Notes under the pieces: model-generated | Told to the model about the DNA's origin: nothing | The model's database searches: none | What the model saw: only the letters and a program-made list of their open reading frames with translations | Shown here: piece by piece, positions 261-31,553 of the stretch | Layout: the number at the start of each line of letters is the position of its first letter | How positions within the stretch are numbered: position 1 is the stretch's first letter | Translations under genes and position numbers: made by a program | From: Tubiluchus corallicola | Taxonomy: Eukaryota > Animalia > Priapulida | DNA length: 64,000 nt | NCBI GenBank assembly: GCA_030141605.1 | Contig: JAQGDQ010000046.1 | Span: forward strand, 558,001-622,000 | Direction of reading: 5' to 3'

Positions 261-381
261 CTTTTAGGGTAACAGTAACATTTGCTGAAGTTCCTGCACC
301 TCTCCTAACTCCCGTATAAACAATGATAAGATAAGCATATTTATCTAAAGGATGATTCTCTTCTAGCACAGTAACACCAAC
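261..381 (-). CDS. Exon 34: start of the canonical cytoplasmic PLAT domain
   Basis: YAYLIIVYTGVRRGAGTSANVTVTLKG. Confidence 0.93.
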
Positions 382-3300
382 CTGTTAAATAATGATTAAC
401 CTTGTTACACTAATCAAGGGAAAGGTTATTTAACTGAAAAAGTGAAAGGATATTATACTCGAACCCCTTCTCCTTTTTCCTCCATTTGTTTTCTCCCTGT
501 GTTTCTCTCTGCAATCCTTTGACATCTGCATTCCATAATGGATCTTTATCAGCAAAACTGTAAAGTATTAATTTACCAAACCTCAAGGTAACTTCCTTTA
601 AAAATAAATATGTTTAATTAACTTACCCTTAATTCATCACGTTGATCATTTTTTCTTGCATAAAGTAACAAAACAAGGTAGAGACACCAAACACCACACA
701 TAAATGCAATAACTATAGGGTTATCGAAAAATGTCAGAAAAAGAACAGCATCTTTAAAAGGGTGAATAGCATTTGGGGCAATCACAAATGATCCTCCAAA
801 TGTTGTCAAATGATTGCACTGACAATGTAATTCTGTCGCTGTTGTCAGTATACCGACCTGTAAAACAAAGCAAAAAGCTTAGTAACTCACAACTAAAAAA
901 CGAGCTGTTTCTTTTTCTGTATTTCTACTTATTTTTGATTTTTGAATGTAAGCCTGGTGCAGCATAGAGCAAATACAAAAATCTCTGATTTGGTCAAGTA
1001 GTCAAACAAACAATTGTTTTAATACATGATCCTTACTAAAATTATTTACTTTATTACCTGGCATCCATCACCAGACCACTCATTCTTAGAGGCATGCCAA
1101 TATAAACAACGTGACGCATAGAATGTAATGGAAAAATTAACACGAGGGTAATCTGCAACTGAAAAATCGATACAAATATTAAATTCTGATACAATAACCA
1201 GTCATGAATAAATCTCACATACAATTCAAGCATAGTATCATGACATATGAAGGCTACAGCAGATGTCTCCTGGTGATTCACAAGAGCTTTTATTTATAGG
1301 AAACACTAGGACATTGTTTTAATACAAGTTTCAAAAATTTGTCTATAATAACTCATCAGTATCCATAAAGCTTTATGACAAAGACAGATACTAATAAGTG
1401 AAGTATCCATTTCAATGAGTGCTGATTAAGGCAGACTGGTGAGCAACAACAGGTCACATCAATTAACTTTTAAACATTCTATGAAAACATGGTGTAAGTT
1501 ATAACCGACTTTAATTTGCATGCTTATAAACACATAGATACGTAGATATAGATAAACACTGTAATATTCTAGTAGAGGAAATATATGTCAAGCATACGAT
1601 TAGACTCTGTTAACATGTCGGTCACCTATTTCTAGAATAAATTACCAATATTAGTGATGACCGACAAATAAAGCTAAAAATTTACAAGAGTTTTCAACCT
1701 TCAAATTTTTTATCAAGTGACCTATTGTGAAATCAATAGTTTTAATCGCATAACTTACAATACTGCCACTATTGTGCATGCAATTTCCTTGTTCAATGTT
1801 TATATTGGAAAGCTTCAAGTTTATCATCGCTAAAATTAGTACAAAATCAATTACTATATTTATGTGCTGGCAAAAAAAAACTGGCCACAAGTTGGCATAG
1901 TTAAAACTACGTTACGATGCTTCAAACTAAGATGCACCAAAAACTTGGTCAAATGTCAATTTTTTGTTTTTTATAAAAACAAATGCTAAATACATTGGAC
2001 TCTTGTATTCTTTTGTATTATCAAGAAAATGTTTAAAAAAATACTAAAAATCTAATTTTATAACCCCATGCCTACTTTTCTGGCTAGAAACTAATAATGC
2101 AGTTGTACAAAACTTGTATTTTCAAACTCCAATAGTAGCTCACAGAAGCAGACATTTTGCTTTGGATTTTTTCTGTTGCCAAGACCAGATCTTCATCAGG
2201 AAGAGCCAACTGAAGATTTAAACATAACTTCAATGTGTTCTTGCAAAGTCCATAGCAACTAGCATTTGTGCTAAGTGTTTTGTAGAAATGCGACAAAAAA
2301 CAATGACTAACTTTAACAGTGATTTTCTCAAGGTTGTTTTTCAGGGTGTAGCCTGCACCTTCAACATGCATTATCTCAGCTTAGGAAACATAAAGTGATG
2401 AACATGGTACTAAAATGATCCTCATTTCACAGTGATTCAGGATACGTTAATAACTAGAAAAGCTTAACTGCCACACATTTATATAACTCAGTTTTCACTG
2501 TGCAAACCACAATCACCAGCACAATCATCAACACTCTCACTATACATATGAGTACAGTTTTTTCAATCAAATTTCCAGTTGTTGGTTCCAAGCTAACACT
2601 TGGAATGCTGGTTCCAAGAGAAATCAATAATAATTTTTATCTTTATTTGCATAAAGAGAGAAATTAAGTCCTGATCAATAGTTTTCCACCTGTTTCAAGT
2701 CCCTTTAATGGTACAAAAACTTTTAGGCCTGTAGAAAGCCAAATTTAATGCTAATCATGACTATAATTAGTTGTGCGACACTGTAAGCAGAATACACTTT
2801 GGTAGCACCACTTACACATGTGCACTGAAGAGCTAGCTGGCCTGATTTTGAAATTTATGGACTACAGCTGCACATAAATGTTTAAGGATTCAAGCTCTTG
2901 AAAACTTGGTTTGTTCACAGTTGTTAAATCCTTTTTGCACCTTTGAATTTAAAATCACTACCAGCAGTTTTTATAATGTGTTGTCTTTAAAACAGAAGAC
3001 TATGTTACCCGGAGGAGTATGGTTTGACAGAAGGAAGCAAGGTATCTTCTGCAGGTTCTTGGATGAGTCTCCCTCTAGCCAGTTCATGCAGGGACAGGTA
3101 TACTCAACAAACTCAGTAGAATTAACAACTACCTGCCAAATTTTAAAGAATAATCCATATCAATAGAGGATAAATTAACTAATTCATGCTCATTAAAATG
3201 ATAATTCACAAAAACAGAAAAGGGCTAAATGAGTTAGGCAATAAATTTTGTGTCCTTTGCCATTTCTAAAGAGCTCTGGACAAATGGTTCCCAATACATA

Positions 3301-6300
3301 CATAGCTTTCCAAAAAGATTATCAGATATTACAACAAGTTTAAGAGGCAAAAAAACTGTAATTCACATAACAAAATAACTTGTTTTTAGCCACTGCAATT
3401 GATCAACATGCACGAACTATATAAATGTATTAATTAAGGAGAAATGGCTGAGTAACAGACCATGAAGCACCATGAATATGCTTTAAAAATGGCTACTACC
3501 TGGCCCTGTTTGCTAAAACCAAATGTTATGAAAATGTGTTACAGGTTTTTGTTACTAGCATAACACCTTCATGCACAACAAACAGCATAAAATATATAAT
3601 CCAAAAACACACTTTATTAAAATGTTCAAAAATAGATGCAATTTGGACACAGAAACAAATCACTGAAAAATAGCATAGCAAGCACCACAATTTACACCCA
3701 GAGAAACTTTTTGACTGCAAAAATTTTGTTTTGAAATATAAAAAAATATACCTTTTCCAGCAACCATGATGCTGCAAGGCCGCTATTATCATGCCATATG
3801 CTAACATATTCCACTTTTCCAACGGACTTTCTTTCTTCATAAAATACATCAGTTCTGCAAAAAAGGATAAAGGCAAAATTCAAGCAGCTTTACTAAAATC
3901 AAATCAATAGAATTTGAAATATGAAAATTTTCAATAACTAAAACATTTTTTCATCATAAGAAATCAAACTGGACAAAAATAGATAGGAAACCTTACAATG
4001 GTAAAAAATATTTAAAAGTTATTGTAATCGATGAACACGTACGGGTGATATGCATAATTTACTATCATCACCATTTTAGCCTGACATCACATTACCAACA
4101 CAGAGACCATCACCATCATAGTCACTGTCGCTATCACTGTCACTGTCACCATTACCATCACCATCATCATCATTACTATCATGAAGGCAGACAGATGCGG
4201 GGAAACCAACCTTAATACTACTCATATACATTTATACCACATACAAAAGTGAATAAAGGTACCCATTTACCTTGACTGAATGGTTCCAGGTTAATAGTTG
4301 CTTTCTTTAGGTAGTCAAATTTGGATCTTTAAAATAATTTGAAAAATTTGTGCATTTTTTTTTAAAATTTATTAGCTAAACAATCAAATTTTTGAGAGAT
4401 GGTTAAAGTCAATCAGTAATCTCATCATTACCATCATAATCGAAAGATTAAAGGCACAAGAAGCCAAACATGAATACTCTGTAATACAAAATAAGTAAAC
4501 CTAGTTAGGGAAATATGGCTGAGCTTGAATGACTTTTCCAAAGTCAAGCAGAGCAATTTTGCTAGTACAGTGGCCGCCGCTTATTATGGACACGGTTATT
4601 GTGGACAGCCGGTTATTGTGGACAACTCGCGAGGGACGGAATTTTCCCCTAATAAAATCCGCCGGTTAATATGGACAACCGCCGCTTAATATGGACAGCG
4701 AACATTGTTGGCACGTGAACCAGCCGTGCCAACCACGGCCTGCGCGCGTGATTGAAAAGAGCTTCCCGCTCTGCTGCCTGTGTGAGTCATTGCATCAGTC
4801 AGTTCGCCGTTTGCCGTGGCCTTGAGAGTTTCGAAACTGTGATAACTTCCTTCCGTTCAAGGTTGAGAGAAAAGTTTCCAGCCAAACAAACTCGTCTGAC
4901 TTCTTTTTTTCAATAAAACAGGAGACGAGTTGATACAGACAGTTTTTTGCCTTTTTTAATGAAGGGGAAGGGTCTTCATGGGTCACTTCGCTTAATATGG
5001 ACAGCCGCTTAATATGGACATACACTGCTGGCCCGAGGTGTCCACAATAAGCGGCGGCCACTGTAATCCATTTAGATAACGCCATGGGCCAAATAATTTG
5101 CCTTGGTGTAGTTCTTTTCCTCTGAATGAGTAATAAAATTGAAAAACTGGTGTTACGCAAATTGCAATACTAAGCAAGCAAACAAACTTGGTACATAAGG
5201 TTCTGTACCTGAAAAACTAACGAGGAATGTTTATAGGCATCTAAGTCAGCAGACACTTATAGAATACGTATGAAATGTATGTAATTAGAGCAATAACTTT
5301 CTAAGTTGCTGCTAGACAAGAAGAATTTGATAAGTAAACTGAAGTGGTTATTTCGAATGATCAACTTTGGAGGAAATAGCACAAGAACTCAGCGGGTGAG
5401 TCAATGCCAGGAGTTCCTTTTGTTCATGCAATTTATTCCAAAGCTTCAAGTAGTCAGTACAACAGCTTGCACTTATTTTGAGCAAGGAAATAAAGGACCA
5501 CACATGCTGAATGAATTCTGATAAAAAATATGTCCAATATTTTCTTAATTATGTGGGAAATAGGGAATACACAAGACAAGTCAAGTTCAGTATGAGTGCG
5601 TAAAGAGAAACTTTATCTCACAATCAACACCTGAAAACTGGGAAGTATAACATACAAGTTGACTAGATGCAAACATAATTGATATTTACGATTAATTATT
5701 GATTCTAAAAAATACTAAAAACCATACTGCTGTCAAAGGTTTCATACGAATAAAGGATTAATAATAATGTTAGCTTACTGGGCACGTCTAAAACTTGCTA
5801 GGGTTCTCCTCAGTCTTATTTCTTCCGAGTCACCTTGGCTGCCGTGAAGTATAACAAATACGTTGGCACCAGTGCCAGCATACGTTACTTCAGCTGTTTG
5901 TGTTATAATACTGTATGTTATAGAAACTACAAAAAAAACAATATGATGTGTAATTCTGCATACTTTAATTCCAATACTGAATAATTAATTCCAAACCAGG
6001 CATTTAATTAAGTTCAAGAAAGACTTATTATAGCTTTATTAACAAAATCATATTCCTTACTTTAAGCCACATAAGACACAATTCCATGTGCAGGGCAAAT
6101 TAGGAAAAAAATTTTAAGCCCCAATTTAGGCCAAAGGCCATTTTTTGCTTATTGTAATAAGAGTTTTTAATAATACATGTAGGTTCCTAATTAGATTGAA
6201 AAATATATGTTTATTTCCCATTTCTTATCATTCTACGTTATCGACAGGCAGGAATTTTATTCTATTTATTTTTTGTTGTGTAACTAAATTGGAGTGAATT

Positions 6301-9300
6301 TACCAGCTGGTGTAATTTCATTTTGAAAAAGTTGATAGCAAATTGTTGTACAAATATAGCTACCATTTAGCAATTTGATAAGCCTGTGAATATCATTTTC
6401 TATTTTCTGTTATAGTAATCTATAAAACATATCAAATGTGTTTTTTACAGTGGCCCACTAGCAGGGAATGATATAGGGATTATGGAAATACATTAATAAG
6501 TGAAAAATATGTTTATGTACGGTTGATTTTTCTTTTTTCAAATAAAATGAATGAATAGTACTAAGCACTGGGCAGTGACAAAGAGTAAAGGTACCACTCA
6601 ACCAGTTTTAGCAAATAGTCTCCAAAGCACCTCATCACTAGACCACTTATGTTTACTGTATGAACGAACAATAGAGCACTTTGACTACAGCATTAAACAA
6701 CAAGATAACAACTTATATTGGCACTTTACAGATGACTTTTTCGTAATTCTATGATAACAGACTGTTTTGATATGATGTATGAGTTACACTGTATAAGCTG
6801 CAGTGGCACATGATGAAGATTACAAGCTTGTGGGGGAGAGAGAGGGGATCACTTAGTATTTAAACAATAGCAGCAGTAGAAAAGGCTGTACAAAATGCAA
6901 TTTAAAATGCATTTTTTATCTAAAATTTCGTGTGCAATCAGTAAGAAAGAAAACGTTCTAGCAAAAGAAGCGAAAGAAAGGCAATAGAAAAGGTTCATGT
7001 GTCATTAACCACTACTAGCATATTTGCTGGTTATAGGTGTAGCATTAAAAGTTGTGACCTACAATATGCCTTTACATTCAGTGTATCAGATGCAGGCTCT
7101 TTTTAACATGATTTTGCTAGAAAAAAGCATGTCTTATATGGCAAAAGTACAGTAAGTATTGTGCCAAAAAATGAGATTTGCAACTTTCCAAAAGCTGCAC
7201 ATGGGTAAGCAATATACACAGATAATGTGATAAGCACATCACTGTGACCCTCCCAAAACAGAAACAGGAGCTACTACACTGTCACGCACATCAAAAGCTC
7301 CATTCATTGCATATTTTTATTTCTCTCAAATGATCTGCTTCAGTGCACTATTAAAGTCAGTTCACCCAACTAGTCGCATTGTATTAGCCAAAGAACAAAC
7401 TATTGGCTGATTAGTCAGTCAGTTACTAATTTATTATATAACTTATCAATCAATTCGTTACTTGTAATGAAAGTAAGCAAGCTAGCAAAAATACAACAAA
7501 ACAATGTGTTAGTAAAATGCATATACCAGGACTGCTTGTAGTTAAATCTTCTTCCGGACTTTTACTGAGAGAATCTGTCACTGAATGTGTATCTAGGTAG
7601 ACAATATCTGCACATACGGGCTTAGCTTTTTCAGTTGCTATTTTGCACTGTTTTTCTATCAGAGCTGTGCATAAAGAGTGCTGTTCATCACAGTTCAACA
7701 AACATTCTGACAAGACTGCTAGGTCGCAAACTGGATAACACTGATGGCAAGACATATTACATGATGACAGCCCAGCTTCACAGTCAACTATCATTGGTTC
7801 ACTACAGGAGTTATGAATATTTCTGCACAATGCTCGTTGTTCCTCAAGATGTAAGGTTTCTTCACATGCGTAATCTGTTTTCTGTAAACACTGCTCGACT
7901 GTGTAGCATGTGCTAATTATGGTATCTAGTACGCAGTTTGGATCCTGTTTACATTGTTCGAGACAGTCGGACTGATTATGGCAATTCCGTGCGCACACTT
8001 CCTGCCATTTTGCACATTTCTGTTCGGCTGTTACATTGCAATTAATGAAAGCTTTGTTACACTCACTAGATATGTTCTTGCAGTATTCTGCCCAATCATT
8101 ATAACATGACTGTTTCCGCATACAGTCTTCCACACTGCAAAATTTAGTTGCATTGTTTTTGCATTGTATTGGGTCTTCACTACTGTCACACTTCTTTATG
8201 CACTCAGCTGCCTTCTGCTTGCACTGCAATGATGGCCTATGACACGATGGGAAATTATACGATTCGAACAAGATACCAATATAATACTTAACTGAAAAGT
8301 TGCGAAAATTATGAAAGTGCAATACGTTGTCATGACTAGAAGCATTGTAAGCATAGTCCAGTACAACAGGAATGTTATATAGAGTAGAATTGTTAGTGAA
8401 ATCTTCAATCACTGGTTTGACATTCTCCTTTAATTTAACCTAAAGACAAGAAATATTTTAAACAAACAAACAACCAACTACTAATATAATATGAGTTTTT
8501 AAATTTAATACAACATTCACACATATTGCACTAGCACAATAATAGATATTCTCTACCTAATAATTTGTAATAAATGCTGAAAAAGGATGAAAGCAAAATA
8601 AAAAACAAAGTTCTTTTGGCCTCTAAACTGCAAAAAGATTTGTCAATTGCTCTAATTACCTTAAGCACAACTCCAAATGGCAGCTGGTAGAAAGACAGCA
8701 CACCGATATGATACGCATCAACAGTAAAGGAGTGAATTGTAATATCTTTATTAAAACGATCTCTGCCAGTGTTTGCGACAAAATAAGAATCTACGTACTG
8801 CACTTCTAGAACATGATAAAAAGTATTAATGCGCTAAAAAAAATTTTTTGCAGATATAGATAAATACTGTCTTTTGCTTGAAGACTACATAAAAAATAAT
8901 TCACTATAACTAAACAGTTAAATAATAAAAGATATCGTGCAAAACAGTTGAAAACACACTAATAAAAAATGTGCATAGTGAAGAAAATAATTTCAGCTTT
9001 TAGATACAGTTAGACCTTGTTTAACAACTTGAAATAATGCAGTCCGGCAAAATGTGTCATTATGTGAAACGATGCTAAACAAAAAAAATCATTTTCATGA
9101 GAAATAATGTAATAGCATCCAGTTGTGTTACACGAAAAAAATCAATAACGCTTGGTACCTAAAACACTTTTTAGTACTTATGGCTTACAGTTTTATGGAG
9201 TCTATGGCTTACAGTTCTACATTACATATTTGTTGAATTAAAAAGCTAGTGAATAAATAAAGTATGAGAAATTGACTAAAAACTAAATTTGAAACTTAAG

Positions 9301-12300
9301 TCCTCAAATTCTGGGTTTTTAGATTTTTTCCCTTTTATCAGCCAGCACTTATAACATGTATCGTCTTTGCTATGTATGGTTTTACTTTTGAGCTGTCTTA
9401 TGTGCGAAAGCTTGAATTACTTGGCTGCCTAGCTGCGTCACACTGCCTTCTATCAGTTTAATTGAGCAAATTATGAGCTTCATTTATAGAGTTCAAGTGC
9501 CGTAAACAATATTTAGTGCCTAAGGTTAAGGCAAAAAATCATCACTAAAACGAAGCATGCGATGTCAAGTGATGATGTCAAGAAATCACCATTGTTAAAA
9601 CAACTGTGTGCTAAGCGGACCGTCATTAAGCCATGACTTGATTGTATTTGCCTCTCACAAGTTCTCATATGAATGCTATCGCATAAGGATTTCATAAACT
9701 ATTAATAATATCTATTCACACACAATTTAAAAAAATACAGAAGCACACAGGCTCAAAATACAGGAAATCACAATAAAAATCACACATAATATAGGACCTA
9801 CAAAACATAAACAATCCAGAGTACTCACTCTATCAAAAATAGAATAAATAAATTTTCAATTTTTAGAACCGTAATTTACTCTGAGATGGTAATTCTGGAT
9901 GTGTTATCAAACCTACATTAGCATTAACGAAAAAAAGCAAATTCGTACTGATCCATTCTGATTTATAAGACATTTGATTTAAAACATCTGGTCTCTACTA
10001 AAGCCACTGTAGTAACCTAGTGGGACAGAATAACAGATTCTATGTCACTTGGGCAGTGAATAGGACTTAATATATGAAACAACTCTTCTGAAACTTGCCA
10101 GCTTTAACATAAAAATTCTGAATGCCCTTCATACTCTCACAAGGATTATTGTTTATTTCAGGAGCTTTTGCCCTAATAGGCCTCATCATGCCAGTGCATG
10201 TAGATTATCAGAGAGAAGCGCCTAACAAAACTTACGAATCTATTACAAAATTCAAAGATATTACGTGTCATGTCTTTAAAAGTGCATATATAGCTAGTAT
10301 ACTACAGCTGCACAGAAAAAATGATATCAAAACATTTTTCATAAATTTTTTTTTTACCTTTGATGTCAATAAAAATGTCCACAGGTGAAGTCATTTGGCC
10401 GAGTTTAACATCAGATTGGTCTTCCCGTTTACGTAAAGTTACACTTGCCAAAGGGGTATTAGCAAAATCCGATAATTTGTTCCAGTTAAAAGGATTTTCC
10501 CTCATGGTGAACACCTGATAAAATAAGTAATTTCATAACAATCAGCATTACATCACAATTACTTTACACATGTAAACCTATTAGAAACACAACTTTAAGA
10601 AGAAATAGAATCACATTTTTCAACAGGCTGTAAAGTTATTAGATGTGTAACAACCACTATATCAGTCACATGAAACCCCAAAAATGCAATCCTCAAAAAG
10701 ATGCAACCTTTAACTAGCTAAAAGATCTACAATTGTAGTACAATAAATATAGTTTGTATTTCTGTTACTATGAAAACTGCAGAGCTATAATTTAACAGTA
10801 AGTATTTGAGAGTAAATGAATCTTAGTCCGTAAATGGCAGGCAACATAACAATAACTATATACTTAAAAATTAAGCATATAATGAATTGCTGAGCTTCTT
10901 GCACTTGTTACCAAAACAAGTGTTGTGCTTACATGTGCCAACTTAGAAATGAAACATTTGATGTTGTATATAAAAAAACTCCATTAATACTGCCTAGGTA
11001 TAAAACATATACACATTTGGTGAATAATAGTAAATACTTTGAGGCGATTTGCAATTTACATTCTCTTACCCGGTGGAATTTTTACTTATGACAAAAGTGT
11101 GCAAAACCAACAATTTTTAAAAAGAAATAAACTGTTCTGTTTATTATTTTCCTTCACTATCATAGTTTTCACAAGTTTTTTATATTATCGCACATCATGA
11201 CTTAAGCACAGAAGTTCATGACTGTGAAGTTCAGCTAATTAACTATCCAAAGTTTGTAACTAATGAACTAATTTGACTCATCTACAGAAATTGCAAATCC
11301 AATAATCCCCAAGCCCTCCCATGCAGGTAACTCCACACTCAAACAGTTCCTAGTGAGTCCTTAAGCTAATAAGGGTTCAAATCTCTATGTATTATTTTGC
11401 TACAACAACTTAGAAAATTTTTTTACATAGTGGACGAAGGAGCCCGCCACACACAATAAGGAAAAATACGACTAGAAATGGTGATCTTCAGAAAAAAATC
11501 TTGGAAAAATAATTGCACTGTCACAGTGACAGACTCTGAAAGCCCTATACTACAAACATAATTATTATAAAAACAAATAAACATTATAAACATATATACA
11601 TAATATAAACTGGAATGTAACAAGGATCATAATGCTTTACCTCTACGCCAACTTCTTCTTGGCCATGACTAGCAGCTGCAAGCACAGCAGAAGAAGGAAG
11701 CCTGATTTGTGTAACACTATCTTTAATCATTTCCATTCCTAAACACAAATAACAAAAATGCTTATGTGCTGCAGATACAGTTTTAGCATCATGTTACAAT
11801 TTCAATACTAAACAACAATTCAGAAATCAATGAAAAATATGTAATCAAATTCTTGCAGATTTTCAAAAAAATATATCTAAAGTTATGAAACAGAATACAA
11901 CCACTTTCAGTATAAAAGATTCCAGTGGCGGGTCGCTTTAAAATTTTTTTAGCCATTGTCTTAATGTTGTGTAAAATGAAACAAACATATAAATAGAAAA
12001 TTTACGTATAAATATGATAAAATCCTAAACAAAAAAATCTCCTTACTATTAGCCTAAATTGTTACACTTCAAGTTAAATTAATCTTGTTTTACTTTGCAC
12101 AAAAAGATCAATAATTTTCTTATTTATCAACACTGTCAGAGATAGTGCTCTCACTCTCTCTCTACCTAGCATGCAGCATCTTATTTTAGATGTTTGTGCA
12201 TGGCCATATGAGCACAACAGAAAAACACCACGTTGCTGGACCTGTGAAGCGCACAGTTTCATCAAGTGTTCTGGTTCCGGATAAGGATTTACAAGTACAT

Positions 12301-15300
12301 ACAGGTATAAAAAAAGATTTAATATGGAGTGAAAACAGGGGGTGCTGCAGTGCTTCATGCGCGTTCTTCAATGATTAAAAAAAACTTACCCCCTAATCGC
12401 TCAATCCTTTCCTGTTTTAATGTAAGATTCATGAATTCTGTTTTAAATGTCGATGGTTCTTGGTTTACAGCTTTGTGTAAGAGAATAGCACTAGAGGCAT
12501 GGTTAATGAAATCGAGACAATTTAATGACACGTGTCTACTCTGGTTTGCCTGCAAAATTATTTACTGTCATCAACTAAATATGCTCTAATTGAAAATAAC
12601 ATGCTTACAAAGTTCTAGCTGCAGAAATAGTTACAACTGTGCAAGTAAAAGTGAAATTACATAGAAGTATTTTGCTTAAAAACACGTGATTAAAGCTATT
12701 TCATTTTGTTAAGTGCTGCTATGCAAAATGGCTTGCACTGAAAAAAATTAGCAAGACAAATTTGCTTTAAAGCAAGCAAGGCAACACAGATACATAAGTA
12801 ACACAAATACAAAAAATTCAGGTGATGAAGTCATTGTACTCCACTCTAGCAACCATTGTTTACTAAATAATGTATTATTATGTATAACTACAAGGTTTCT
12901 AAAGCAATTTTCAATATTAACAAAGCTCTCTAAACGTGCATGTTTGAATTATTTACAACTACGATTCTGTACGACCGACTAGTATACGGTTACGGTGAAA
13001 CCAAATGAGGGCTAAATATGATTTGCCGAAAGTTTAGCTCAATAAAACTTTATTAGTATAAGAAAATGAAAGAAAAGCAATGTCGAAATTTTATGCCAAT
13101 AAAGATATTCTTCACAAGGAACTAATTTCATAAACTTGTGAAAATAAGCAAAATATTTAGTATAACAAATAAATGATTTTGACAAGTTTACTATTATTAG
13201 CCAAATCAATTTTTCTATCCTGTTTTCACAACTTGATTTTTGACTAGTTTGACTTGATTTTGTAAAAACAGTTACTGCGTGTTAAAGGAAAATGGACCCA
13301 ATCTTGAACTATAGTTCAAAACAATCTACCTCATAAAGTATTGAATAGGAACAGACTATTTTTTAAAGAATGGCTTATGCGAAAGAATTATTTATGCAGA
13401 AATCTAATGTTGGATTCGCAAAGCAAGTCATGTACTTCATAATTTGTTAATTAAATGGGCACTAGCACCTGCGCCTCGACACTGTCTTCCGAGTTCAGAG
13501 ATGTGGTTAAGTTGTGATGTGGCGCACACGTTTGAAAGCTCAGGCGAGAACACAGAACTCTTCACATAAAGCTAAAAAATTTTGCTTTGAAATTTATACC
13601 ACCTACTGCCTTATTGCACACAAAGCTTGTATTACTAGCAAACTGTATAAAACTTGAACATCTAAACTACTGTGATGACCTTTAGGCAAAGCCAATTTGA
13701 CAATAGATCTTTTGACAACAAGTTCAAGTAACATTGTGCAAGCTTTCAAAAAATAAACACAGGATGAGTAGTGCACACTTCACTAACTAAACAAAAGTGT
13801 AAATTACTTTATCTTGTCAATAAATGAAATAATGTTTGTTTTGGTGAGTCAGTGGTGCACAGTGGGAAGGTGAATCAATGAGTACTTTACCAGTTGGCAT
13901 TAGCATTTTAATTTACTACAAATTTTCTTTTCTAGTTACACAAGTCTTTCAAACAGGTAAGCATAATGCAAAGTAATATTACTTTGCATGTATACAAAAT
14001 TTTCTAGCATCTTATTTTAAAAGTGATCCCCTTTTTCAAAATTGCAGAGTTTTTGTTTATATCACAGTGAATGTTGCACAGTAGTAGTGTACTTCAATTT
14101 TCTTTTTCACAAACACATGCAACACCTTTGCAGAATTCTGTGCTGTTGAAAATTATGTTCAGTTGTGATGTCATCACTAGCTGAGCTCGCCTGTCATTTA
14201 AATTTGTAACATATTACTTAGTTATTAGAAAGACTACGGCATTATCATAGGTATTAAAATGTATACTATTATACTTCAAAATGAGGTAGGACATGAAAAA
14301 TCATCCCGTTTTCCTTAAACATTTGCAGAAATCTAAAATGTATATACGTTTACAACTAGTATTAACATGTAAAATAGAAGGTTACTAATAAGAAACTGCT
14401 ACATGTACATTTTTAGACTTGGGGTGAAAACCAATTAAATAATCTAATGCCTTGCCCGACTACGGCAGATGGTGGATTTGATGACGATGATGAGCTGGCT
14501 TGCTATATATCATTAAAATAATAACAAAAATGACAGATTAACACTAAAATCTTAATTATAATTAATTCTCGGGAATATTACCGGAGGTAAAACGTCTGGG
14601 TTTATTCCACTATCTTTCAATGGTATAGTTACATGTTTCACTTCTGGAAGTTGAGTATTTACAAAGTTCAGATCAGATACACCAACCATTAAATGTGAAA
14701 CTGCACTTAGGCCAGACCTGTTAAAATGGCCAATAGTTATGATTGTCTAAATAAATGAGAGAGAAAAATAAAAAAACGCTAATACTGTTAAGTATAAATA
14801 AAACACAAAATCTTGTACCAGACAGTACCTAAGAAATAACTGCGAGACATTTATAAGCTTGTATTAAAAAACAATACTTAGTAAAATAATTACTAACCAA
14901 CAATTTACATCTCAATAATCTATATTTAACTGTAAGAAACCAAACAGTGGTCATATGTAAAAAGCAACTTGTGATCTAAAATTCTGAATTTGAGGTCATG
15001 CATTAATCATTAAGTCCAATAAATAAAATTCCTTTATTAAGCCAGGGAAAATGTTAGCAGATTCATATATTTGCTGATTTTCACTCGCCTTCTTTTCTGA
15101 AAATAAGTATGAAATACTAAGAAAATAAAAATAATGATATCAACGATGATTTTCTAAGAATTCAAAAAAAGAAACTTTATCTAGAAAAAGTTACATTTGT
15201 GCAAGCAAAAGAGTTGCATTAGATGCATCACTCTTGCACACTAAAACATTAATCATGAGAAACAAAATGTAAAGCATTTCAATTATAATGACAAACGTCT

Positions 15301-18300
15301 GAAAGTATTTAAATGATCATACATTCTCATCAATTACAAAACTAGCACTATTTTAAAACCTGGATGTATTTTCCAGTTCAGACAACTCAATAGTATGAGC
15401 ATTGTTCTTCATAAATCTTCCAACCTCTTCCAGTTTCCATGCAGCATGTACCTAGTAAGCAGAAAAACCTACAAAATTTCACAGAAATGAGTAACACAAA
15501 TTACTACCTAACTTTCAATCAAAGGGAACTATATCGGCTCAACTCTGTTAAATGCCAACTTCCTTTATTTTAATAGACCTCTGAGGTTGATGGTGCATTT
15601 CACGGTCTCTAGTACAAAATTCGGGATAATGTGTATAATAGTCTGAGTAAATGAAATTTGGCAATAGCTAATTTGGGGCAAAGAATGGTAATTTCAAGGT
15701 TCTAATTTTTATCAATTAAATTCATGAACACCTAATCAACAAAAAAATGCTGCAATTTTTCAACAAAAAATATCTTGAACTTTCAACGTACCATGTACCA
15801 TACTACTGATTAGCATTCAGTGAAACTGTAAAATAATTTGCTAACCTTTTTATGTAAATAAACCTCCTCATGAGCACCAAGAATTTGTTGTAACATTGAA
15901 GCCACTAATTTTGCATGAGCAATATCAGTCACTTGCATTTTTATTACTATATCCATTAATTCTCCTCTTATCTGAAACAAGCAGAGCAAATGCCATTATA
16001 CTAACTAAGTATGGTACTCGAAAAGTCTCCCATTACTAAATTCAAATTACACACTTAAGTTTTTCTCTTACTTTTGTTTTACTACTACATGCTTCTTTCA
16101 ATCCAAACAACATTTAAGTAATACTAGTTTTTGTTGTAGCTGGAAAAACTTAAGACCTAAGCTTCATGATTTTCAGATAAAAATGACCAAAGTAATAGTG
16201 GTGACTACAACATCCTCAAGACCCCGAGCCTTTAGTTTCCAGTTCAAATACATTTTCAAATTGGCCATCCATCAATATGAAATAGAAAAAAATGCATTTT
16301 TTAAAAAGCAGGATCCAATCAACAGCAGGGGCGGATCGAGGATTTTTGAAAGGGAGGGATCTAACCGTGACCAAGCAAAGACGCGAAAGCTGGGGGGCTG
16401 CTTCATCAGCCGCTCAACAAGGGGGTCTAAGAGAAATGCATTTTAATCCATTTTTCAGCCTTGTGAAGCATATTTTAAAAAAAAAATATTAACTAAATTT
16501 TTTGGACATTTGTGTCTGACATTGTAGTTATAACATCAACTGCTATTACCCTGTGAAACGAATAAGAAAAAAACGACATTGAAATTCTTGTACACCAATG
16601 CCATTTTTATTGCCTTGTGATTGTCTTCTTGCTGTCTCTGCATTATCACTGCAGAAAATTATTAGTTTTCTCATCAGATGTCATTTCAGGTTAATATTAT
16701 TGGTCCACGAGCCCTAATTAACCGCTTTGTTGAATACCAAAATTGCAATGACAGCTTATGTATTATTCGGGGAATAAAAACATCAAAATGTTTTTAAAAA
16801 AACATATTATTTCTGTGCATTGTTATATTATTGTTATTTTATCTATAATTTCAAATAAGGTTTCTGCAATACATACTAAACTATCTGTCTAAATGCACTA
16901 AATAATAATTATTATAATTACTGATATTACTAATTTAGTAACCTTAACTACAAGCACAGCTGGAAGTGTAGCTGAATTTTGCACACACTCGCAATACATT
17001 TGAGTTATTATCTACAGCTAAAGCAGGATTGTTCAATTACTAATAGTCAGTTACAGCCTGTAATAAAACAATTAACACAGCACAGCAAACATCTAGGTAG
17101 ATCAAGGATCTAATTATAGCAGGAAACAAGCACATTGACTGTAGTTACCAAGCCTTACACGGGCGGGATCATGAATCATTTTCTTTAAGCACTCTAGCAC
17201 TCAAACACTAATAAAGAATACACATTGACAAAAAATACCAAAAATGAAAATTTATGAAATTTTCACAAGATTCTATGTGTTAAGACAAGAGGTTGTCAGT
17301 AGTTATCATGCTTCATTGCTTAGCTGAATCCTTCATATAGCATACCAAGAGAGTATTCAGCTATACATTGCCATAACCCAAACAGTATACTTCTCCCATG
17401 CTGACTAGAATGCCATTCTAAATAACGAACATAACAAGTGCCAGTTGAAGCATCCAGCCAAGCAAGCAAAGAGATTATACATAAAAGTAAGATATGAGCT
17501 ATGCCCTGCAATAACAGACCCTATTAAGGTGTTGACATCACTACTGTCAGACAAGGAAAAGTACCACACCTTATGACACAATGTCAACCGCTGCTAAGCA
17601 ACCAAAGGAGTGAATATCACGCAGGTGAACAACAAATTCACAAGAGTCTGAGCAAAAGCAAGCGGTCATGAACAGTTAACAATGCTTCACTGGGTTTTGG
17701 GGATAAATTTAAAAACAAAAATTAACAAATTTCACTTGAATTTAAACATGAACGACATTAACAGAATATATTGTGGATCAAGAATGGGCATATATTTTCA
17801 ACTTGATGTCATTATTTAAAAACAACCATTTGTATTTTATAATTACAGTCTTCAGCAGATTCAAAATTTGATTCTTTTTAGAAAATTAGCCAGAGCTTTT
17901 GAGCAAAAAAGTTTTATAAAAGATCACAAGTTTCGTGTCATATGCAGTGTTTTTTTAATGATGAACTAAAATCCTCTGAAATCTACTAATTCAATTCAAC
18001 CAATAAGTAAAACACAAATCCATATAAACTCTTAAAAAGAATAAGAGCTTCTGGACCATAATACTGCATCACTATTTAAAAGCAAACTTTACATTTAAAA
18101 TTTTTTTTGGCTAATGTACATGTCTAATATTTATATTTAAACTACCAAATGACAAAAATGCAGACTTTCAGAATTGGACTACGCATCTATCTTTTTTACC
18201 TCTGTCTTTTTTTTATGCACTTCAGCTGCTGTTTCATCATCTTCAATTGCATCTTTGTCAATGTCATTTAACGAATCAACAACTGTGTTAACAATCTGAG

Positions 18301-21300
18301 ACGTTTCTGTAAACAGAAATGCTTTACATGAATCGCTTGCCTTGCAGTGTCATGACATATTCGTGGATATTAGATGTCATACATGAAAAATGAAGGACAC
18401 TCCAAATTTTGTGCACCTCAGACAAAAGAAGTATTATCATCTAGGAAACTTACTACTAATACTGCCACCACTGTTGTCTTCTATCTGACTTGTACCCGTC
18501 GATTCATTTTTCTTTGTTAATGAAGAAATGATTTCTAGCTCTTCAACAGCCTTTTCAGTTTCTGTCGAATCGATGTCGTTGTGGCCGAACGGATAGACCT
18601 GGTTTAAATGATATTTAATAGCTACAATAACTTTGCATATTCATGCAAACTAAGCAAAAATCTATAAATATAAATTAGATTATATTAGATATTTAATGTC
18701 ATTTGTCAACTGTAAATACATTACAGATGTATAAAAGTTACAGTGAGTCTGGGATAAATTAATAGTCCATATACCCAACTCATTCATGGTAACATCTTTT
18801 CCTAAACAATAATAAAATTAAAGTTAAAGCAACAAAAATATAAATAAAAAGAAAACTAGTTATAGCCAAACCATAAGATAGTTACAGAGCAATACAAATA
18901 AAATTGTTCTTAAATCCCTTGGTATTCTTTTAGTCAATATATGGATAGCTGATAAACAAAATGTCTTAAAGAGTTAGCCAAGTGTGCGCTTTAAGCCATT
19001 CTTTGTGAAAACAACAATACAATGATAATTGTGTTTTAGACGTACATTAATTGACTGGTTTTCTCTGGTGAGCTCTAAAATGGCTAACAGCATGATTAAA
19101 TGCCTAAGACAACATCAGAAAATTCAAACCTTAATACTTTACAATTTGATTATGTGAATATGACCTCCTATGGTGCACAAAATTATGAATACAATTCTCG
19201 GTCGCAGATACCTAGAATTTTACTAACTCCACACAGTTTAATTAGCTGAAATGTGTTTAGGAAACACATAATTGCTCAACTTAGATCACCAGCTACACTG
19301 GATATGGTGAAGGGCATTGTGAGCCAAAAAATGTAATGAACCGAAATAATCCATTGATTTCAATCATATACAGTGTTCCCTCACTACTTCGCGGTTTGGT
19401 TATCGTGGACTCGCTGTTTCGCGGGTTTTTGCGGTACTTCATCTAAAATATTTTTGCATATGCGTAGTACGTATTGTACAGCAATGTATATATTTGATGA
19501 ATTTTGCATAAAAAATCACAAAATGTATAAAAATATATTAAAATTCATCATCATCATTCTAGCTGTAGGACGTATCTTCAATGGTGAGTACCCACATCAA
19601 ATTTTTAAAATTACGTTTTTTTAAATTTCTAAAAATTATCTAAGTTTTTTTAAAGGTACATGTACAGTATGGGAAAAGTTATTAAGGGAATGGGAAAGGG
19701 CAAAAAGCCTACAAAAATTGCCTAATGCAAACACTAAATTTGATATAAAATTGGGCCTATATATAAAGTTTAGACTGCCTAAGTAATTGCAGTTGACAAA
19801 GACAGGGCCAAACACCAAATACTGATTAATGAATGCCCTGCAAAAACACCATATCATTTAACAATAAAAAACCACTACTGCCTGTAACTGGTAATCCTTT
19901 GCAGTCGTCATAGATTTGAATAATATAAGATTTAAGTGGATGGCAAGAATTCACAAGTCCTTGAGAGTTTTGGCATTCTTAGATTGGTGCAGTTTGCTCA
20001 GTTTGATATAGTTTACAGTACACATAGTAATACAATACATTAGGCAATAGTTTAAAGTAAAAAGTGTAGTTTTGCTGGTAACAGTTTAAAGAGCAGAAAG
20101 AATAAACTCTAAGGGACAACATTCTATATGTTACCACAGATTACAGCTTACAAAATTAATAGCTAAAATTTAACAATGACTTGCAGAAAATGCTTAGTTC
20201 ATTCAGCTCTTAATTACAAGACCAAAAACATAACAGAAAAACAAAACAAAATACAGTAAAGGCAGAAAAGTGTCACTTACTACAACAATAAAACTGGTCT
20301 GTGTAGAAGATTTGTAAACATTTGACACAATAACTAAGAGTTCTGCTTGATAGTCCTTTTCTGAATTACCAACAGGAAGAAATGCCGGGGGAAATCTCCC
20401 ATCTGCGGTGGAATACAACAGGATTTTATCTGAAATGTAGCACATGTATAATGAAATAGTTGGTGAGACAGAACGTAAAACTAACCAGCACTAATGAAAC
20501 AGCCTACTTATTTTTTTGCTGCATTTAAGAAAAGAAAAAACCTATAATCTATAAGTGTACGATATGTAGGTCTTCATATTTAGGCCAGCTTTACCTGCAT
20601 CAGATTCTACACCGGCACTGTAGTAAAACTCGTAGGTAAGAGATGAATCTTCTATAGTGTGACAATTTAACGAAAACTTTGTCGTTAATTCTGTTCCTAA
20701 GAATATGCAAAAATACTGATTACCAAAATTAATAGGAAGACTTTGGAATTACTAGCAATACCAAACAGAAAATTGAGAAAGACCATGATCTTCTTGACTT
20801 GTCATAGAGTCTTTTGAAGCTTGCTACATAAGTTTTCTCATAAACAATTTTAATTTTAGGACTAAGAAAAGCGAATAAGGTGGTGGAAAAAAATCATTTA
20901 AACAAACCATTTGCATGGCAAAAAGAAGAGTTGTCAACATAGCACAGAGACTTCAAAAGTGAAAGATAGCAAAAAAAACATCATGAAATATATTAAAATA
21001 GCAAATTAAGTAGGAGTAAAACCATATTAAGTTGATATTACTTTTAAATAAGTCAAAAACAAAATTAATAGAAATAAATATTCTAGCATTGAGTAATGTC
21101 ATTTTTCTGGGTAATGCTAAAAAATCTTCTAGCATTCTCACTCTTCTGATGTTTTATTAGAATAAAGTCTGACTACTAAAAAAGCAGATATTTATATTAA
21201 TTTACTACAAGCTTTAGTGTGAAAACACCATAAAACTCCATATTTGAGTTCCACATTTGAAAATGCATGTATCAAACATAACATATCTTAACTTAAAAAA

Positions 21301-24300
21301 AGTTGTTGTGAAAAGTTCTACAAACAATGTTAAGTTACTCAGCATGAGATACTGGACCTGTAAGTGGTATTTCAGCCCCCTTTGGAAATGCACAAAAATC
21401 TGCCCTCAATGAGGAAAACACTCATAGGCAACTAGTATGGTAGATGAAACACCTATATACTTGTGTCAAGCTCCGGTTTGCTTAACTTCAACCTAGTAAG
21501 CACATTCAGTAATTAATCACCAGTCATTACGAATTACTCTTCAAAATTTCAAGTAAACTTTCGCATACTCACAACAGATATTATAAACCCAGGAAATTTT
21601 AGTGAAATTATTTGGTATACAAAGATAATATGCTAAATCTTTACAAAAATAAACCAATCAAGTACTCTTTATGCACCTGGAGAATGCCACCTTAACACAC
21701 AAAAACACATTATTTCTGGTAATGTAAATTTAAAAAAGGTAGTTCATCTCACCTTCACACGGATCAAGCAGACAGGTCAAATTTCGAGGAGCTCTGTTAA
21801 CCACAACTAGATAAGAGCCAAAACCAGTAGCAGTTGGGCCACCTGAAGAGTGAGTTGTCAATTATCACACAAATAAACTAAGTGTTCTACTTTGAATTGT
21901 TTGATAAAAACTTGAATTTTTGTTGTTTTCTGACGTTTTATCAAGTTTACTATTAAGTTCACTTTTATCACTATCAAACGAAATTAACATAAACCCATTT
22001 CAATTTTTTCTAGTTATCTCACAGTAATATGATAACACTAACACGCACGAATTAGTTACTTGGTTTACCCATGCAAAATAACGCAGTATACGCATAAAGA
22101 TGCTCATGCACTTTGAGATATATTACATATAAGCATACAATTTATATTAGGCATAGATTCATTGTAAAAAAGCACTTGTGGAGCAGCTATAATGTCTCAA
22201 ACTGGCGAAATATAGACACAGTGAGAAAGTTTACAATAAAGTAAAAGTTAGAGTCTGGAGTTCATTGAGATAAGTCTGAAAAATCTTGTAAGTTTAAATC
22301 TTAAGTTCAAAACTTAAAGATTTAAAATTTAAGGGTTTATACCTCTAACTTCAACAATATAAGAATAATCTTCTTCTAAAGTGTTTTTTCTCACAGTAAG
22401 CATATCGGTGTTCGAGCTTATAATTATAACAGAATTATCTAAGTATTCGCCATCGATTCTAACACCGGTAGGTTCATTTGTGTCTGTATGTCTCATATAT
22501 TTCTGCACCTTCCAACTGTAGGTGGCAGCTAATAAACTGTCTTCATCGCAGCTATGGCAAACAGCTTGCAATATCAAATTTTGCACTTTGTTTACTTCTG
22601 ATGCACAATTTGTCAGACATCTAAATAATAAAAAAATAGAACAATGTTTTATTGCAAAACCACTGTAAAACAACCAGTAAGCCACTTGAGGTAGAGGCCA
22701 AAAAATCAAGAATAAGTGCACATTAAAGAACCCTGTAACACACGTTCTTTCGGGAATGTAACTGTGAAGTTTGGAACAGTAGTGTCACAATAAAACCTTG
22801 TCACAGTGAAAAACGAAAATCGGGGAAGAAAGCAGAAGTGAAGTCCCGTAAGGAACGACACTGCTAATGTGTGACTATCATTGTATTTACATGTGGGCAT
22901 GTCAAGTGGTGCGCCAGTAATGAAGAGAGACTGGGGTACTCGCTGAATGTATTTTAGCACTAAGTTCAGTCATAGCTTTGTCCACACTTACTTGAATACA
23001 CTATATTTTATAGATGAAAAGAATATTAGTAACGAGTTACAATGTGTAAAAGTTTTAGCATGACATCACTGGTATTTCATGCTGGGCTGCTTTCTTGTTC
23101 TCTGTTTTCTGTTTTCTGATGATTTCTACTTTATAAATGTTTCACTGCCAAATTTTTTGCCCAAAGTGCCATTCAGACAATGCTTCTGACAAAGAGTGAT
23201 TGTTTCTATGTTTTCCGGCATATACAATTTGTAAAATAACAGCGGATTCTTACGTATGACCGAAAAGAAAAAAACTAGACAGTAAGGAAGTAATGACAGA
23301 TTTTGTTCCCTAGGCTTTACCGACGTGTTGAGTCTGTGCAGACCGGGTATGATGTCTAGCTTAATGTGAGGTACAAAAGTAAAAGAAAATGGAAAACTAA
23401 ACAGAAATACCTTTCAGACAACATTTTTAACTCATTAAATGAGGTTCTCCCTACATTTTTAGAGACTTGGGAAAACCTTTGTGGGATTTTTTTCCAAATG
23501 TGCAAATGGGGTTTTAGAGAAAAGCTTTAAATCTTTAAGTCAAAAATATTCTCATTGTCTACAGTTTGACTGCTGTTTGGCACACATACAAGATTTTGAG
23601 CAGTCGAGCTCCTTTATTCTATGTGTAGCTGTCCAGACTTTATTTTTTGCCATGTCTAGCAAGCTAGATAGGCAATTCTATTTGTGGCAACAGGAAAGGA
23701 TGTTCTATCCTCACTTTGGTAGCATTTTGTGTCACTTTTACATTGAAGTAACGTGTAAAAAATCAGAGGTATTTCAAAATGTGAAGAAAGGGGGGTTACT
23801 GTATTAAAATCGAGAATTTCGACTAAATTGATGGGATGAAATGTTTTAATGCTAACCCAAGCTAAATGTAGCTTTTCATGAAATTTAGCTAGGAAGGTTG
23901 ATTATTACCTTATTTACAATGCCTCAAACCCAAAATAGTGGCCAGCAGCTTACTTGCAGCATGATTTAATTCCCAGGTGTACTTGACACACCTATTGTTC
24001 ATACAGCTTACACATAGTTTAAATAATAGTAGCACACTAGCATCATAGTGCTCTGTAAACTGTGTTTATTACTATGAATGAATTTGCTGTTTCTTGCAGG
24101 TTTATAAATTGAAAATTCATTCTTATAAGTTTATTTGCTATAAACAAATAAATACCATTGTAAGAAATTTTTTTATTAATAGATAAATCATTACTCAGCA
24201 ATGACTGTTCTCTGTTCAGTGCTCACAGTGCTCCACTTGCTGGGGTTGCTGGTTGTCTGTACTGCAGCTATTAAATGCCTCTTCCTTACGTGACTTCCCA

Positions 24301-30300: not shown

Positions 30301-31513
30301 GGATGAAACACGTTTCAGCACCAACTTCACGAGCATGGTCTGTCTGAAGGTCTACCTCAATTCCCATAAATATTTTTGCTAAAATGAAAAAAAGCATCAA
30401 TTAACTTCTGTATAGGACAACTGCTTTGACTGTACAATTTGTATACACTGCACAATTATCATTCATCTCATTACAGTGCCTCGCCTTTGTGGTCGCAGTT
30501 ACAAGCATTTGTACTTAATGCTACACAATTTGTAATACAACTCCTATTTCATCTATTTCATCGTAAAGGCTGGTCGAGCACAATATCAAAAATGACCATA
30601 AAAGCATCACCAATAACTGAAATAAGAGTATTAGACAAGACAGTCATGAAATCAAGCCACTAAAAAAACAAGAATGCAAAAAAATGTCGATTAAAAAATC
30701 TGTCCATTTTATGTAAATAATGCAAACTTGCTTCTAAGGCAGTTACAGAACAGATGCGCCAGGTAACATGTGGACAACACACTAGCTAATGCCACATAAT
30801 TCATAACACTATAAACATACATAATGTTGCGAAAAAATAACCAAATTTCTTACAAAATTCTATGTCCAAAAAAGTTTATAAAGTAGTATTAGAAAAAGAT
30901 CAAATTTGGACACAATGTACTGATTATGCATAAAATTCACAATTAAAATGCCCAAATACACCAAATACAACATCTATACAAAATTGGTTTCAATGCAGGT
31001 AATAGCAATTTTGTCATATTCAAACTATACTAGAAAACAACTGTTTTTCTACATTCCACATATGCTGATAGTGCGTTTGCATTCGAAAGTAATTTATTAA
31101 AAAAGAATCTACTGTTATTCTTCTAAATTATTTCCAATGTTTTTTCTGTCATCATTTATATTTAACGTATTTATATGTTGCTCAATTAAATTCAAAAATT
31201 CCTCACCACTAAAAAATCATGTAATGACTGTAAAAAGTAGTTTACATAAGCAAAGTTTATGTTATTCTCACAAAAGTTTTCATTCACAAAACAGAAGAAT
31301 ACTTTGTAAACTCATTGAAGCAATCAGCAATTCATGCATTACCGTTCTCGCAGTTATTTCCTATGTACGTTTCTGTACAGTTGCAAAAGTATTGTTCTTC
31401 ATTTTCCGAACAGGTTCCGCCATTTCTACAGGGATCAGATCCACAAACACTTGTATCTGCAAACAGTGCATATTGCTTAGATGACCATACAATCAATAAT
31501 ACATAATAAAATG

Positions 31514-31553
<40 letters not shown>

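What the first reader, a model, noticed from the sequence alone, without database searches (positions are those of the whole stretch)
3009..5926. Second, extracellular PLAT/LH2 domain inside the GAIN domain of a polycystin-1-like receptor
Seen: three exons splice in frame to a complete PLAT domain (AGTGANVFVILHG...FRRAQTDVF...IWHDNSG...WLLEKVVV...PCMNWL). They lie upstream of the GPS (CLYW...W...GC...CQCNHL|T) and TM1, and the normal PLAT starts after TM1 at 381-261. Established: in PKD1-family proteins the single PLAT sits in the first cytoplasmic loop and binds Ca2+, lipid and partner proteins. Inference: this protein has PLAT domains on both sides of the membrane. The outer copy would be a lipid or membrane sensor on the cleaved N-terminal fragment, next to the stalk. 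It has three Cys and the sequons NST and NHT, consistent with a secreted environment. I do not know of this architecture being described.
Basis: partly seen in the sequence, partly recalled or inferred. Interest (0 to 1): 0.88.

Follow-up and report, generated by a model that had tools for sequence, protein, structure and literature searches.

The report
Polycystin receptor with outer PLAT domain
An animal gene for a polycystin-1-like surface receptor encodes, besides the usual lipid-binding (PLAT) domain inside the cell, a second PLAT domain and a 32-cysteine module inserted into the predicted outside-the-cell part just before its self-cleavage motif; a priapulid worm protein has the same extra PLAT, so it is likely a conserved sensing add-on, though its splicing and ligand are untested.

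Summary
Observation confirmed and extended. Three GT-AG exons (5926-5779, 3854-3752, 3132-3009, minus strand) join in frame into a PLAT domain upstream of the GPS and TM1 of a WSC-EGF-PKD-REJ polycystin-1-like gene (31 exons, 2061 aa, no stop). The PLAT is only the last third of a 377-residue insert; the rest is an unclassified 32-Cys module. A profile of 54 relatives puts the insert in one GAIN-B loop that is 0-36 residues long in them. The layout is rare but not unique: 1 of 60 relatives long enough to show it, Priapulus caudatus XP_014681546.1, has an outer PLAT (41% identical, same three Cys) plus the inner one. Not shown: splicing (no RNA run; the three exons can also be skipped together in frame), fold, ligand. 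Ten literature searches found no description; the scan's index held no note of it on other DNA. New variant of a known receptor family.

The parts
5779..5926 (-). Outer PLAT exon A (148 nt, phase 1 to 2)
   Evidence: AG/GT ends; Pfam PLAT 1-43/117 E=0.012; Atlas PLAT 0.95
3752..3854 (-). Outer PLAT exon B (103 nt, phase 2 to 0), carries WHDNSG
   Evidence: PDB hits Rab6IP1 and PC1 PLAT; tblastn from 12 of 14 relatives' inner PLATs
3009..3132 (-). Outer PLAT exon C (124 nt, phase 0 to 1), carries all three Cys and the return linker
   Evidence: matches Priapulus outer PLAT incl. CPCM.WL, PC and NTPP
7527..8439 (-). 913-nt exon: last GAIN-B strand before the loop (YYIGIL), then ~250-aa module with 32 Cys and a Ser/Thr/acidic linker; first two thirds of the insert
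   Evidence: no Pfam, homologue or Atlas hit; AF2 single-sequence model helical but pLDDT 37
1058..1158 (-). GAIN resumes (VNFSIT strand) and first half of GPS
   Evidence: Pfam GPS 2-21/45 E=0.0089; profile node 351 onward
627..857 (-). Second half of GPS with HL|T, stalk, TM1
   Evidence: Pfam GPS 27-43/45 E=0.00064; strongest hydrophobic peak KD19 2.54
261..381 (-). First exon of the canonical inner PLAT; gene continues beyond the window edge
   Evidence: profile nodes 1-26, 22 bits; 58% identical to Priapulus inner PLAT start
8660..18598 (-). GAIN-A and GAIN-B exons (18598-18454, 18306-18200, 15971-15864, 15451-15360, 14717-14582, 12549-12390, 11738-11641, 10514-10358, 8805-8660)
   Evidence: open frame; GAIN-region profile nodes 17-340, 84 bits (with the start of the next exon)
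20281..30378 (-). PKD repeat and REJ module exons
   Evidence: Pfam PKD E=0.00057; REJ on 5 exons, best E=4.9e-08
31343..45717 (-). N-terminal phase 1-1 module exons: EGF-like (45717), WSC x3, EGF, WSC, EGF; 5' end and signal peptide not located
   Evidence: Pfam WSC x4 and EGF x2; EGF-like tblastn at 45727-45584; phases

Best explanation
The gene encodes a polycystin-1-like receptor whose GAIN domain carries, in the loop just before the GPS strands, a 377-residue insert made of a 32-Cys module and a complete PLAT domain, which is likely spliced in and likely folds as a side appendage on the extracellular, N-terminal cleavage fragment, where it would act as a binding module. Shown: exon structure, frame, domain identity, position in the loop, a second species with the same outer PLAT. 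Inferred: (1) origin by one insertion of a phase 1-1 exon cassette from a non-polycystin PLAT gene rather than by copying the inner PLAT; (2) GAIN-B stays intact because both flanking strands are present and PLAT ends lie close together (recalled from PLAT structures), so the insert loops out; (3) cleavage at HL|T leaves the insert on the N-terminal fragment, 57 residues before the cut; (4) the PLAT binds a lipid surface or a Cys-rich protein partner outside the cell, as lipase PLATs do, and the bound appendage would pull on or shield the GAIN strands that hold the stalk, tuning signalling. Step 4 is the weakest (lipid about 0.35, protein partner about 0.35, neither about 0.3).
For: Open 31-exon frame. 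Profile of 54 relatives aligns the window protein to node 340 (YYIGIL on consensus yylgv) and again from node 351, with 377 residues between; that loop is 0-36 aa, median 10, in the 54, and the 6 longest loops carry a Cys pair, so the site tolerates growth. Priapulus XP_014681546.1 has Cys-rich tail, linker, PLAT, GPS, TM1, PLAT in one chain; its outer PLAT passes Pfam's cut-off (66.2 bits vs 23, nodes 1-116/117). Outer PLATs are 41% identical, against 48% for GPS-TM1, score 241 with each other versus at most 143 with 58 inner PLATs, and share T-A where 53 of 58 inner PLATs have T-G, all three Cys and NTPP. The two proteins are each other's nearest rows in a 69-row tree. Outer-PLAT introns differ from the inner-PLAT introns of this gene and of L001; in PDB the Priapulus outer PLAT ranks lipoxygenases first and its inner PLAT ranks PC1 first. 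All seven N-terminal module exons are also phase 1-1. Extracellular PLATs bind lipid and a Cys-rich partner in LPL (PMC8319833, passages).
Against: No transcript evidence for any junction; the cassette can be skipped whole in frame. The Priapulus record is a predicted, apparently truncated model whose RNA support I could not see. Sister grouping has SH-aLRT 77 only, quick tree, careful search unfinished. Similarity of the Priapulus Cys-rich tail to the 32-Cys module is no better than composition (286 of 2000 shuffles). The lipoxygenase-over-PC1 margin is small (39.6 vs 33.8 bits). The acidic AGTD/FE positions of coral lipoxygenase are G and R in the window, which argues against a kept Ca2+-dependent lipid site here. 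No signal peptide was located and TM2 onward lies outside the window, so topology rests on family knowledge. No usable structure of the insert or of the host loop.
Confidence: 0.62

Rival explanations
1. The PLAT exons are an optional cassette: the main transcript skips them (7527 to 1158) and a minor or tissue-specific isoform includes them, so splicing switches the outer PLAT on and off.
For: Skipping all three keeps the frame; exon A has the weakest donor score of the gene under the small matrix; alternative exons are common in adhesion GPCR ectodomains (PMC13197933, passages).
Against: Phase 1-1 symmetry is shared by all seven N-terminal module exons, so it is expected from exon shuffling alone; acceptors are strong; three exons would have to be skipped together; the Priapulus model includes the domain.
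Confidence: 0.2
2. The outer PLAT is expressed but is only a structural clamp or spacer: it closes the Cys-module loop back onto GAIN-B and binds no outside ligand; the 32-Cys module is the business end.
For: Acidic positions lost in the window; conserved features between the two species are mainly core and Cys residues; the Cys module is two thirds of the insert.
Against: 41% identity kept across a deep split is more than a spacer needs, though a fold constraint could give it; Priapulus keeps D and E.
Confidence: 0.12
3. The three exons are silent remnants, belong to a separate nested transcript, or are an assembly artefact.
For: No RNA holder; exon C alone is not significant.
Against: No stop or frameshift in 375 nt and exact phase fit at both ends; a second DNA run holds all three exons with no difference in them and the flanking introns; the same domain sits at the same place in the Priapulus chain; exon A's frame is closed 32 codons upstream and exon C's 12 codons downstream with no Met start in the upstream stretch.
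Confidence: 0.04
4. The insert disables GAIN autoproteolysis, giving an uncleaved receptor in which the appendage replaces stalk signalling.
For: A 377-aa insert immediately before the GPS strands is far outside the 0-36 aa range of 54 relatives.
Against: Window GPS keeps four Cys, two Trp and HL|T; Priapulus has HL|S, both matching the HL|T/S rule (PMC9672506, passages).
Confidence: 0.08

Closest known systems
Polycystin-1 family with WSC-PKD-REJ-GPS-PLAT order (Acropora digitifera aug_v2a.02830, Nematostella polycystin-1-like; PMC4890752, PMC8846589, passages)
   Same: WSC, PKD, REJ, GPS, TM1, inner PLAT in the same order
   Different: Extra PLAT and a 32-Cys module inside GAIN-B; four WSC and EGF exons interleaved. 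Those papers name one PLAT (intracellular in the Nematostella passage); supplementary Fig. S6 of PMC4890752 was not seen.
Human PKD1/PKD1L1-3/PKDREJ and sea-urchin SpREJ proteins (PMC1934368, passages)
   Same: REJ, GPS upstream of TM1, PLAT right after TM1
   Different: That paper states the PLAT is always found intracellularly; here a second one precedes the GPS. SpREJ7 has a 428-aa insert, but in REJ, not GAIN, and not reported as PLAT.
Priapulus caudatus XP_014681546.1 (predicted 'PKD1-like 2', 460 aa)
   Same: Cys-rich tail, linker, outer PLAT, last GAIN strand, GPS, TM1, inner PLAT; 41-58% identity by region
   Different: Database model only, annotated without mention of the outer domain; starts inside the Cys-rich part; keeps AGTD and FE, lacks the two sequons
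Extracellular PLAT of lipoprotein lipase (PMC8319833, passages) and lipoxygenase PLATs (PDB 3vf1, 3fg1, 2fnq)
   Same: PLAT working outside the cell on lipid and on a Cys-rich partner (LPL); lipoxygenase PLATs are the best PDB sequence matches of the Priapulus outer PLAT (E 5e-09 to 3e-08)
   Different: Those are appended to enzymes at a chain end; here the PLAT is inserted into a receptor's autoproteolysis domain; no lipase PLAT was hit by sequence at E<=1

Membership tests
Polycystin-1 (PKD1/REJ) family | REJ module | tested here: met
   Pfam REJ on 5 exons, 2 above cut-off
Polycystin-1 (PKD1/REJ) family | GPS motif with conserved Cys/Trp and HL|T/S before TM1 | tested here: met
   Pfam GPS on both exons, each below cut-off alone; profile nodes 351-403 82 bits
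Polycystin-1 (PKD1/REJ) family | PLAT directly after TM1 | tested here: met
   First exon only is in the window: nodes 1-26, 22 bits
Polycystin-1 (PKD1/REJ) family | 11 TM segments with polycystin channel domain | not testable with these tools
   Beyond the window edge; no genome held
Polycystin-1 (PKD1/REJ) family | Signal peptide / single membrane crossing between outer and inner PLAT | tested here: inconclusive
   TM1 is the only strong hydrophobic peak between them; a second peak (1.96) lies in the PKD repeat; 5' end not located
Polycystin-1 (PKD1/REJ) family | Single, intracellular PLAT (canonical architecture) | tested here: not met
   Second PLAT upstream of GPS; this is the variant
PLAT/LH2 domain (PF01477) | Full-length profile match | tested here: met
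   Window: 74 bits on own profile nodes 2-112/127; Priapulus outer copy: Pfam 66.2 bits, 1-116/117. The spliced window peptide itself was not scored on Pfam.
PLAT/LH2 domain (PF01477) | Eight-stranded beta-sandwich fold | not tested
PLAT/LH2 domain (PF01477) | Ca2+ and lipid binding | not testable with these tools
   AGTD/FE acidic positions: D,E in Priapulus and coral LOX, G,R in window; their role as Ca2+ ligands is recalled, one search found no paper
GAIN domain | All core elements present in order around the insert | tested here: met
   Nodes 17-340 and 351-403 of a 404-node profile of 54 relatives
GAIN domain | Autoproteolysis and intact fold with the insert | not testable with these tools
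   Motif intact; model of a relative had pLDDT <50 over this loop region

The most novel reading that the evidence does not exclude
A small, old branch of polycystin-1 receptors has turned one GAIN loop into a built-in ligand arm: a new 32-Cys fold plus a lipoxygenase-type PLAT that grips lipid surfaces outside the cell and levers the strands holding the tethered agonist, giving a natural handle on how extracellular binding is coupled to GAIN opening, with splicing able to switch the PLAT off.
Probability: 0.2. Interest if true: 0.8.

Novelty: new variant of a known kind. Interest (0 to 1): 0.58.

Why it matters
The PLAT of polycystins is described as always intracellular (PMC1934368), and GAIN is treated as a closed autoproteolytic fold. 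A conserved 377-residue insert shows a loop next to the GPS strands that accepts whole folded domains without losing the cleavage motif. That gives a natural site for engineering handles, tags or force probes into PC1-type GAIN domains, and a test case for whether binding at GAIN alters stalk exposure, an open question for PC1 and adhesion GPCRs (PMC9672506). The 32-Cys module is also an unclassified domain. Against this, domain gain in invertebrate polycystin ectodomains is common, and no function is shown.

Tried and rejected
No RNA holder listed; run X2 (guessed RNA) laid nothing on the exons: no evidence either way. No genome held. Homologue searches with the Cys exon and the GPS exon alone gave 0 hits among 495 and 68 candidates, limited to 2000 aa. 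Atlas on the Cys module: no usable hit. AF2 of the Cys exon: pLDDT 37; not fold-searched. AF2 of relative P0008: mean pLDDT 48, <50 over the loop region, Foldseek hits only via its PLAT. PDB searches with exon A, exon C and the GPS exon gave chance hits or none. A deletion scan on a 14-row GAIN profile peaked after YYIGIL but failed its control (38 of 200 shuffles as high, other blocks higher); I rely on the 54-row profile instead. My first count (0 of 54, cut at 250 aa upstream) missed the Priapulus protein (241 aa upstream); it was found and recounted. P0022 and P0137 have two PLATs but each follows a GPS/TM1 (tandem models), not this layout. The L002 alignment used a wrong frame and was ignored. 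Acceptor 14746 was replaced by 14717. Four differences in run X1 inside the Cys exon (2 synonymous, 2 not, none at Cys) are too few to show selection. Paper PMC4814171 not held. Complex prediction was not run: no alignment depth for the Cys module.
Full report
1. Observation. The window is an intron-rich, 33% GC animal sequence; no genome is held and its taxon was not determined. On the minus strand, exons 5926-5779, 3854-3752 and 3132-3009 have AG/GT ends and join in frame between exon 8439-7527 and the GPS exon 1158-1058. A 31-exon model from 45717 to 261 reads 2061 residues without a stop, every intron GT-AG. Under a matrix from 25 other exons, the three acceptors rank above 98.0, 99.9 and 93.9% of all AG and the donors above 82.4, 98.8 and 96.0% of all GT; the first donor is weaker than any of the 25 leave-one-out scores. 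Of the 7 ways to skip these exons, 6 break the frame and only skipping all three keeps it: a phase 1-1 cassette of 375 nt. A second DNA run (X1) covers all three exons with no listed difference in them. No RNA holder was listed, so splicing is unverified.

2. It is a PLAT domain. The joined peptide scores 55.8 bits on a profile of 13 relatives' inner PLATs and 74 bits over nodes 2-112 of 127 on a profile of 58; against the inner PLAT of L001 it scores 130 versus 28 +/- 5, 0 of 2000 shuffles. Exon A alone gives Pfam PLAT at E=0.012 and Atlas PLAT at 0.95; exon B gives Rab6IP1 and PC1 PLATs in PDB; exon C alone is not significant.

3. Host gene. Pfam on 23 exons finds WSC x4, EGF x2, PKD x1 (below cut-off) and REJ on 5 exons; GPS lies on two exons, then TM1 and the first exon of the inner PLAT. 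This order matches the coral and sea-anemone PKD1-like proteins (PMC4890752, PMC8846589; passages). The channel half is outside the window.

4. Where the insert sits. A profile of the GAIN region from 54 relatives aligns the window protein from node 17 to 340, ending at YYIGIL on the consensus yylgv strand, and again from node 351 at VNFSIT; 377 residues fill the 10-node gap. In those 54 the loop is 0-36 residues, median 10; the 6 longest carry two Cys. An earlier test on a 14-row profile pointed to the same edge but failed its control and is not counted. The insert is a ~250-residue stretch with 32 Cys and a Ser/Thr/acidic linker (exon 8439-7527), then the PLAT, then about 10 residues; the PLAT ends 57 residues before HL|T. 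The Cys module has no match in Pfam, the homologue search or the Atlas and its model is unreliable (pLDDT 37).

5. How common. Searches gave 161 distinct proteins; 60 have at least 160 residues before the GPS exon, enough to hold an outer PLAT, and 1 of 60 does (1 of 65 at a 100-residue cut). The other 101 are too short to tell, the 60 include near-copies, and 793 of 943 library hits were not listed. 0 of 17 further cluster members have it. Named members of the panel include bivalves, a limpet, abalone, a flatworm, a brachiopod, echinoderms, a hemichordate, a tardigrade, an insect, rodents and an ichthyosporean. The one positive is Priapulus caudatus XP_014681546.1: Cys-rich start, linker, PLAT, last GAIN strand, GPS, TM1, PLAT. 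Its outer PLAT passes Pfam's cut-off over nodes 1-116 of 117. The two outer PLATs are 41% identical (GPS-TM1 48%, inner PLAT start 58%), share all three Cys, NTPP and T-A where 53 of 58 inner PLATs have T-G, and score 241 together versus at most 143 with inner PLATs. The two proteins are nearest neighbours in a quick 69-row tree, with support 77 only. One insertion in a common ancestor is the simplest reading, not proven. The Priapulus Cys-rich start is not significantly like the window's module (286 of 2000 shuffles).

6. Origin (inferred). The inner PLAT of this gene and of L001 has a phase-1 intron after the second strand; the outer PLAT has none there and has introns at two other places. 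In PDB the Priapulus outer PLAT ranks lipoxygenases first, its inner PLAT ranks PC1 first, with a small margin. With the phase 1-1 ends, shared by all seven N-terminal module exons, this points to exon shuffling from a non-polycystin PLAT gene.

7. Topology and rarity hold. The Cys and sequon argument does not: 25 of 58 inner PLATs have three or more Cys, 20 have a sequon (3 have two), and Priapulus lacks both sequons. Conservation of the same three Cys in both species is better, if indirect, support for a disulfide; lipase PLATs having a C-terminal disulfide is recalled, not checked. The acidic AGTD and FE positions seen in coral lipoxygenases and Priapulus are G and R in the window; that they bind Ca2+ is recalled (search 109 found no paper).

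8. Mechanism. Established: PC1 is cut at HL|T/S, the GPS is the last strands of GAIN, the fragments stay associated, the inner PLAT binds PS, PI4P and beta-arrestin, and GAIN flexing has been proposed to respond to ligands (PMC9672506, passages). PLATs work outside cells in LPL, binding lipid and the Cys-rich GPIHBP1 (PMC8319833, passages); some PLATs bind stretched membranes more tightly (PMC8740744, passages). Inferred: the insert loops out of an intact GAIN-B, stays on the N-terminal fragment near the membrane, and binds a lipid surface or protein partner, which would bias stalk exposure. I put the expressed-appendage-as-binding-module reading at 0.62; optional cassette 0.2, ligand-free clamp 0.12, cleavage-blocking insert 0.08, silent or nested exons 0.04 (these overlap in part).

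9. Literature. Ten full-text searches listed no paper whose title or abstract start describes an extracellular PLAT in a polycystin; one search was swamped by unrelated words; the library lacks most subscription papers. Passages read: PMC1934368 (PLAT always intracellular), PMC8846589, PMC11448475, PMC4890752, PMC5318412 (12 of 26 places shown, one PLAT per protein in those rows), PMC9672506, PMC6299612, PMC8740744, PMC8319833, PMC11593649 (nothing useful), PMC13197933. No supplements were opened; Fig. S6 of PMC4890752 may bear on invertebrate architectures. The scan's own index held no such finding but two unchecked notes on other domain gains in polycystin-like proteins (e1-8672202, e1-9700041), which temper the surprise.

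10. Verdict. Real, rare and shared by at least two species; present unnoticed in a public gene model; a new variant of the polycystin-1 family with a GAIN loop holding two added modules. Expression and function are open. Interest 0.58.

Noticed in passing
window 7527-8439 (minus): Unclassified ~250-aa module with 32 Cys, mostly C-x6/7-C and C-x3-C spacing, predicted helical at low confidence; no hit in Pfam, homologue search, Atlas or among 161 relatives. Possibly a new disulfide-rich domain.
   Followed up: partly
L002 737-992; P0001-P0004, P0006, P0037, P0098: In several relatives (named ones are bivalves) the same GAIN-B loop is 31-36 aa with a Cys pair, a small version of a disulfide-clamped loop at the insertion site.
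   Followed up: partly
window 4566-5065: 500-bp high-copy element with 28-nt terminal inverted repeats (96%), TA at both ends, in the intron between PLAT exons A and B; contig depth 500-1270 in run X1; looks like a MITE.
   Followed up: no
window ~57600-60600 (minus): Broken reading frames resembling a LINE-type reverse transcriptase (label from recalled motifs, no family search).
   Followed up: no
window 47790-53190 (minus): Five exon-like stretches (near 53171, 50602, 50023, 48927, 47963) that may be the 5' part of this gene or another gene; not closed into a frame, no signal peptide seen.
   Followed up: partly
P0022, P0137: Proteins with repeated GPS/TM1-PLAT blocks; tandem duplications or fused gene models.
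   Followed up: no
L001 3228: GC donor in the inner PLAT of this relative.
   Followed up: no
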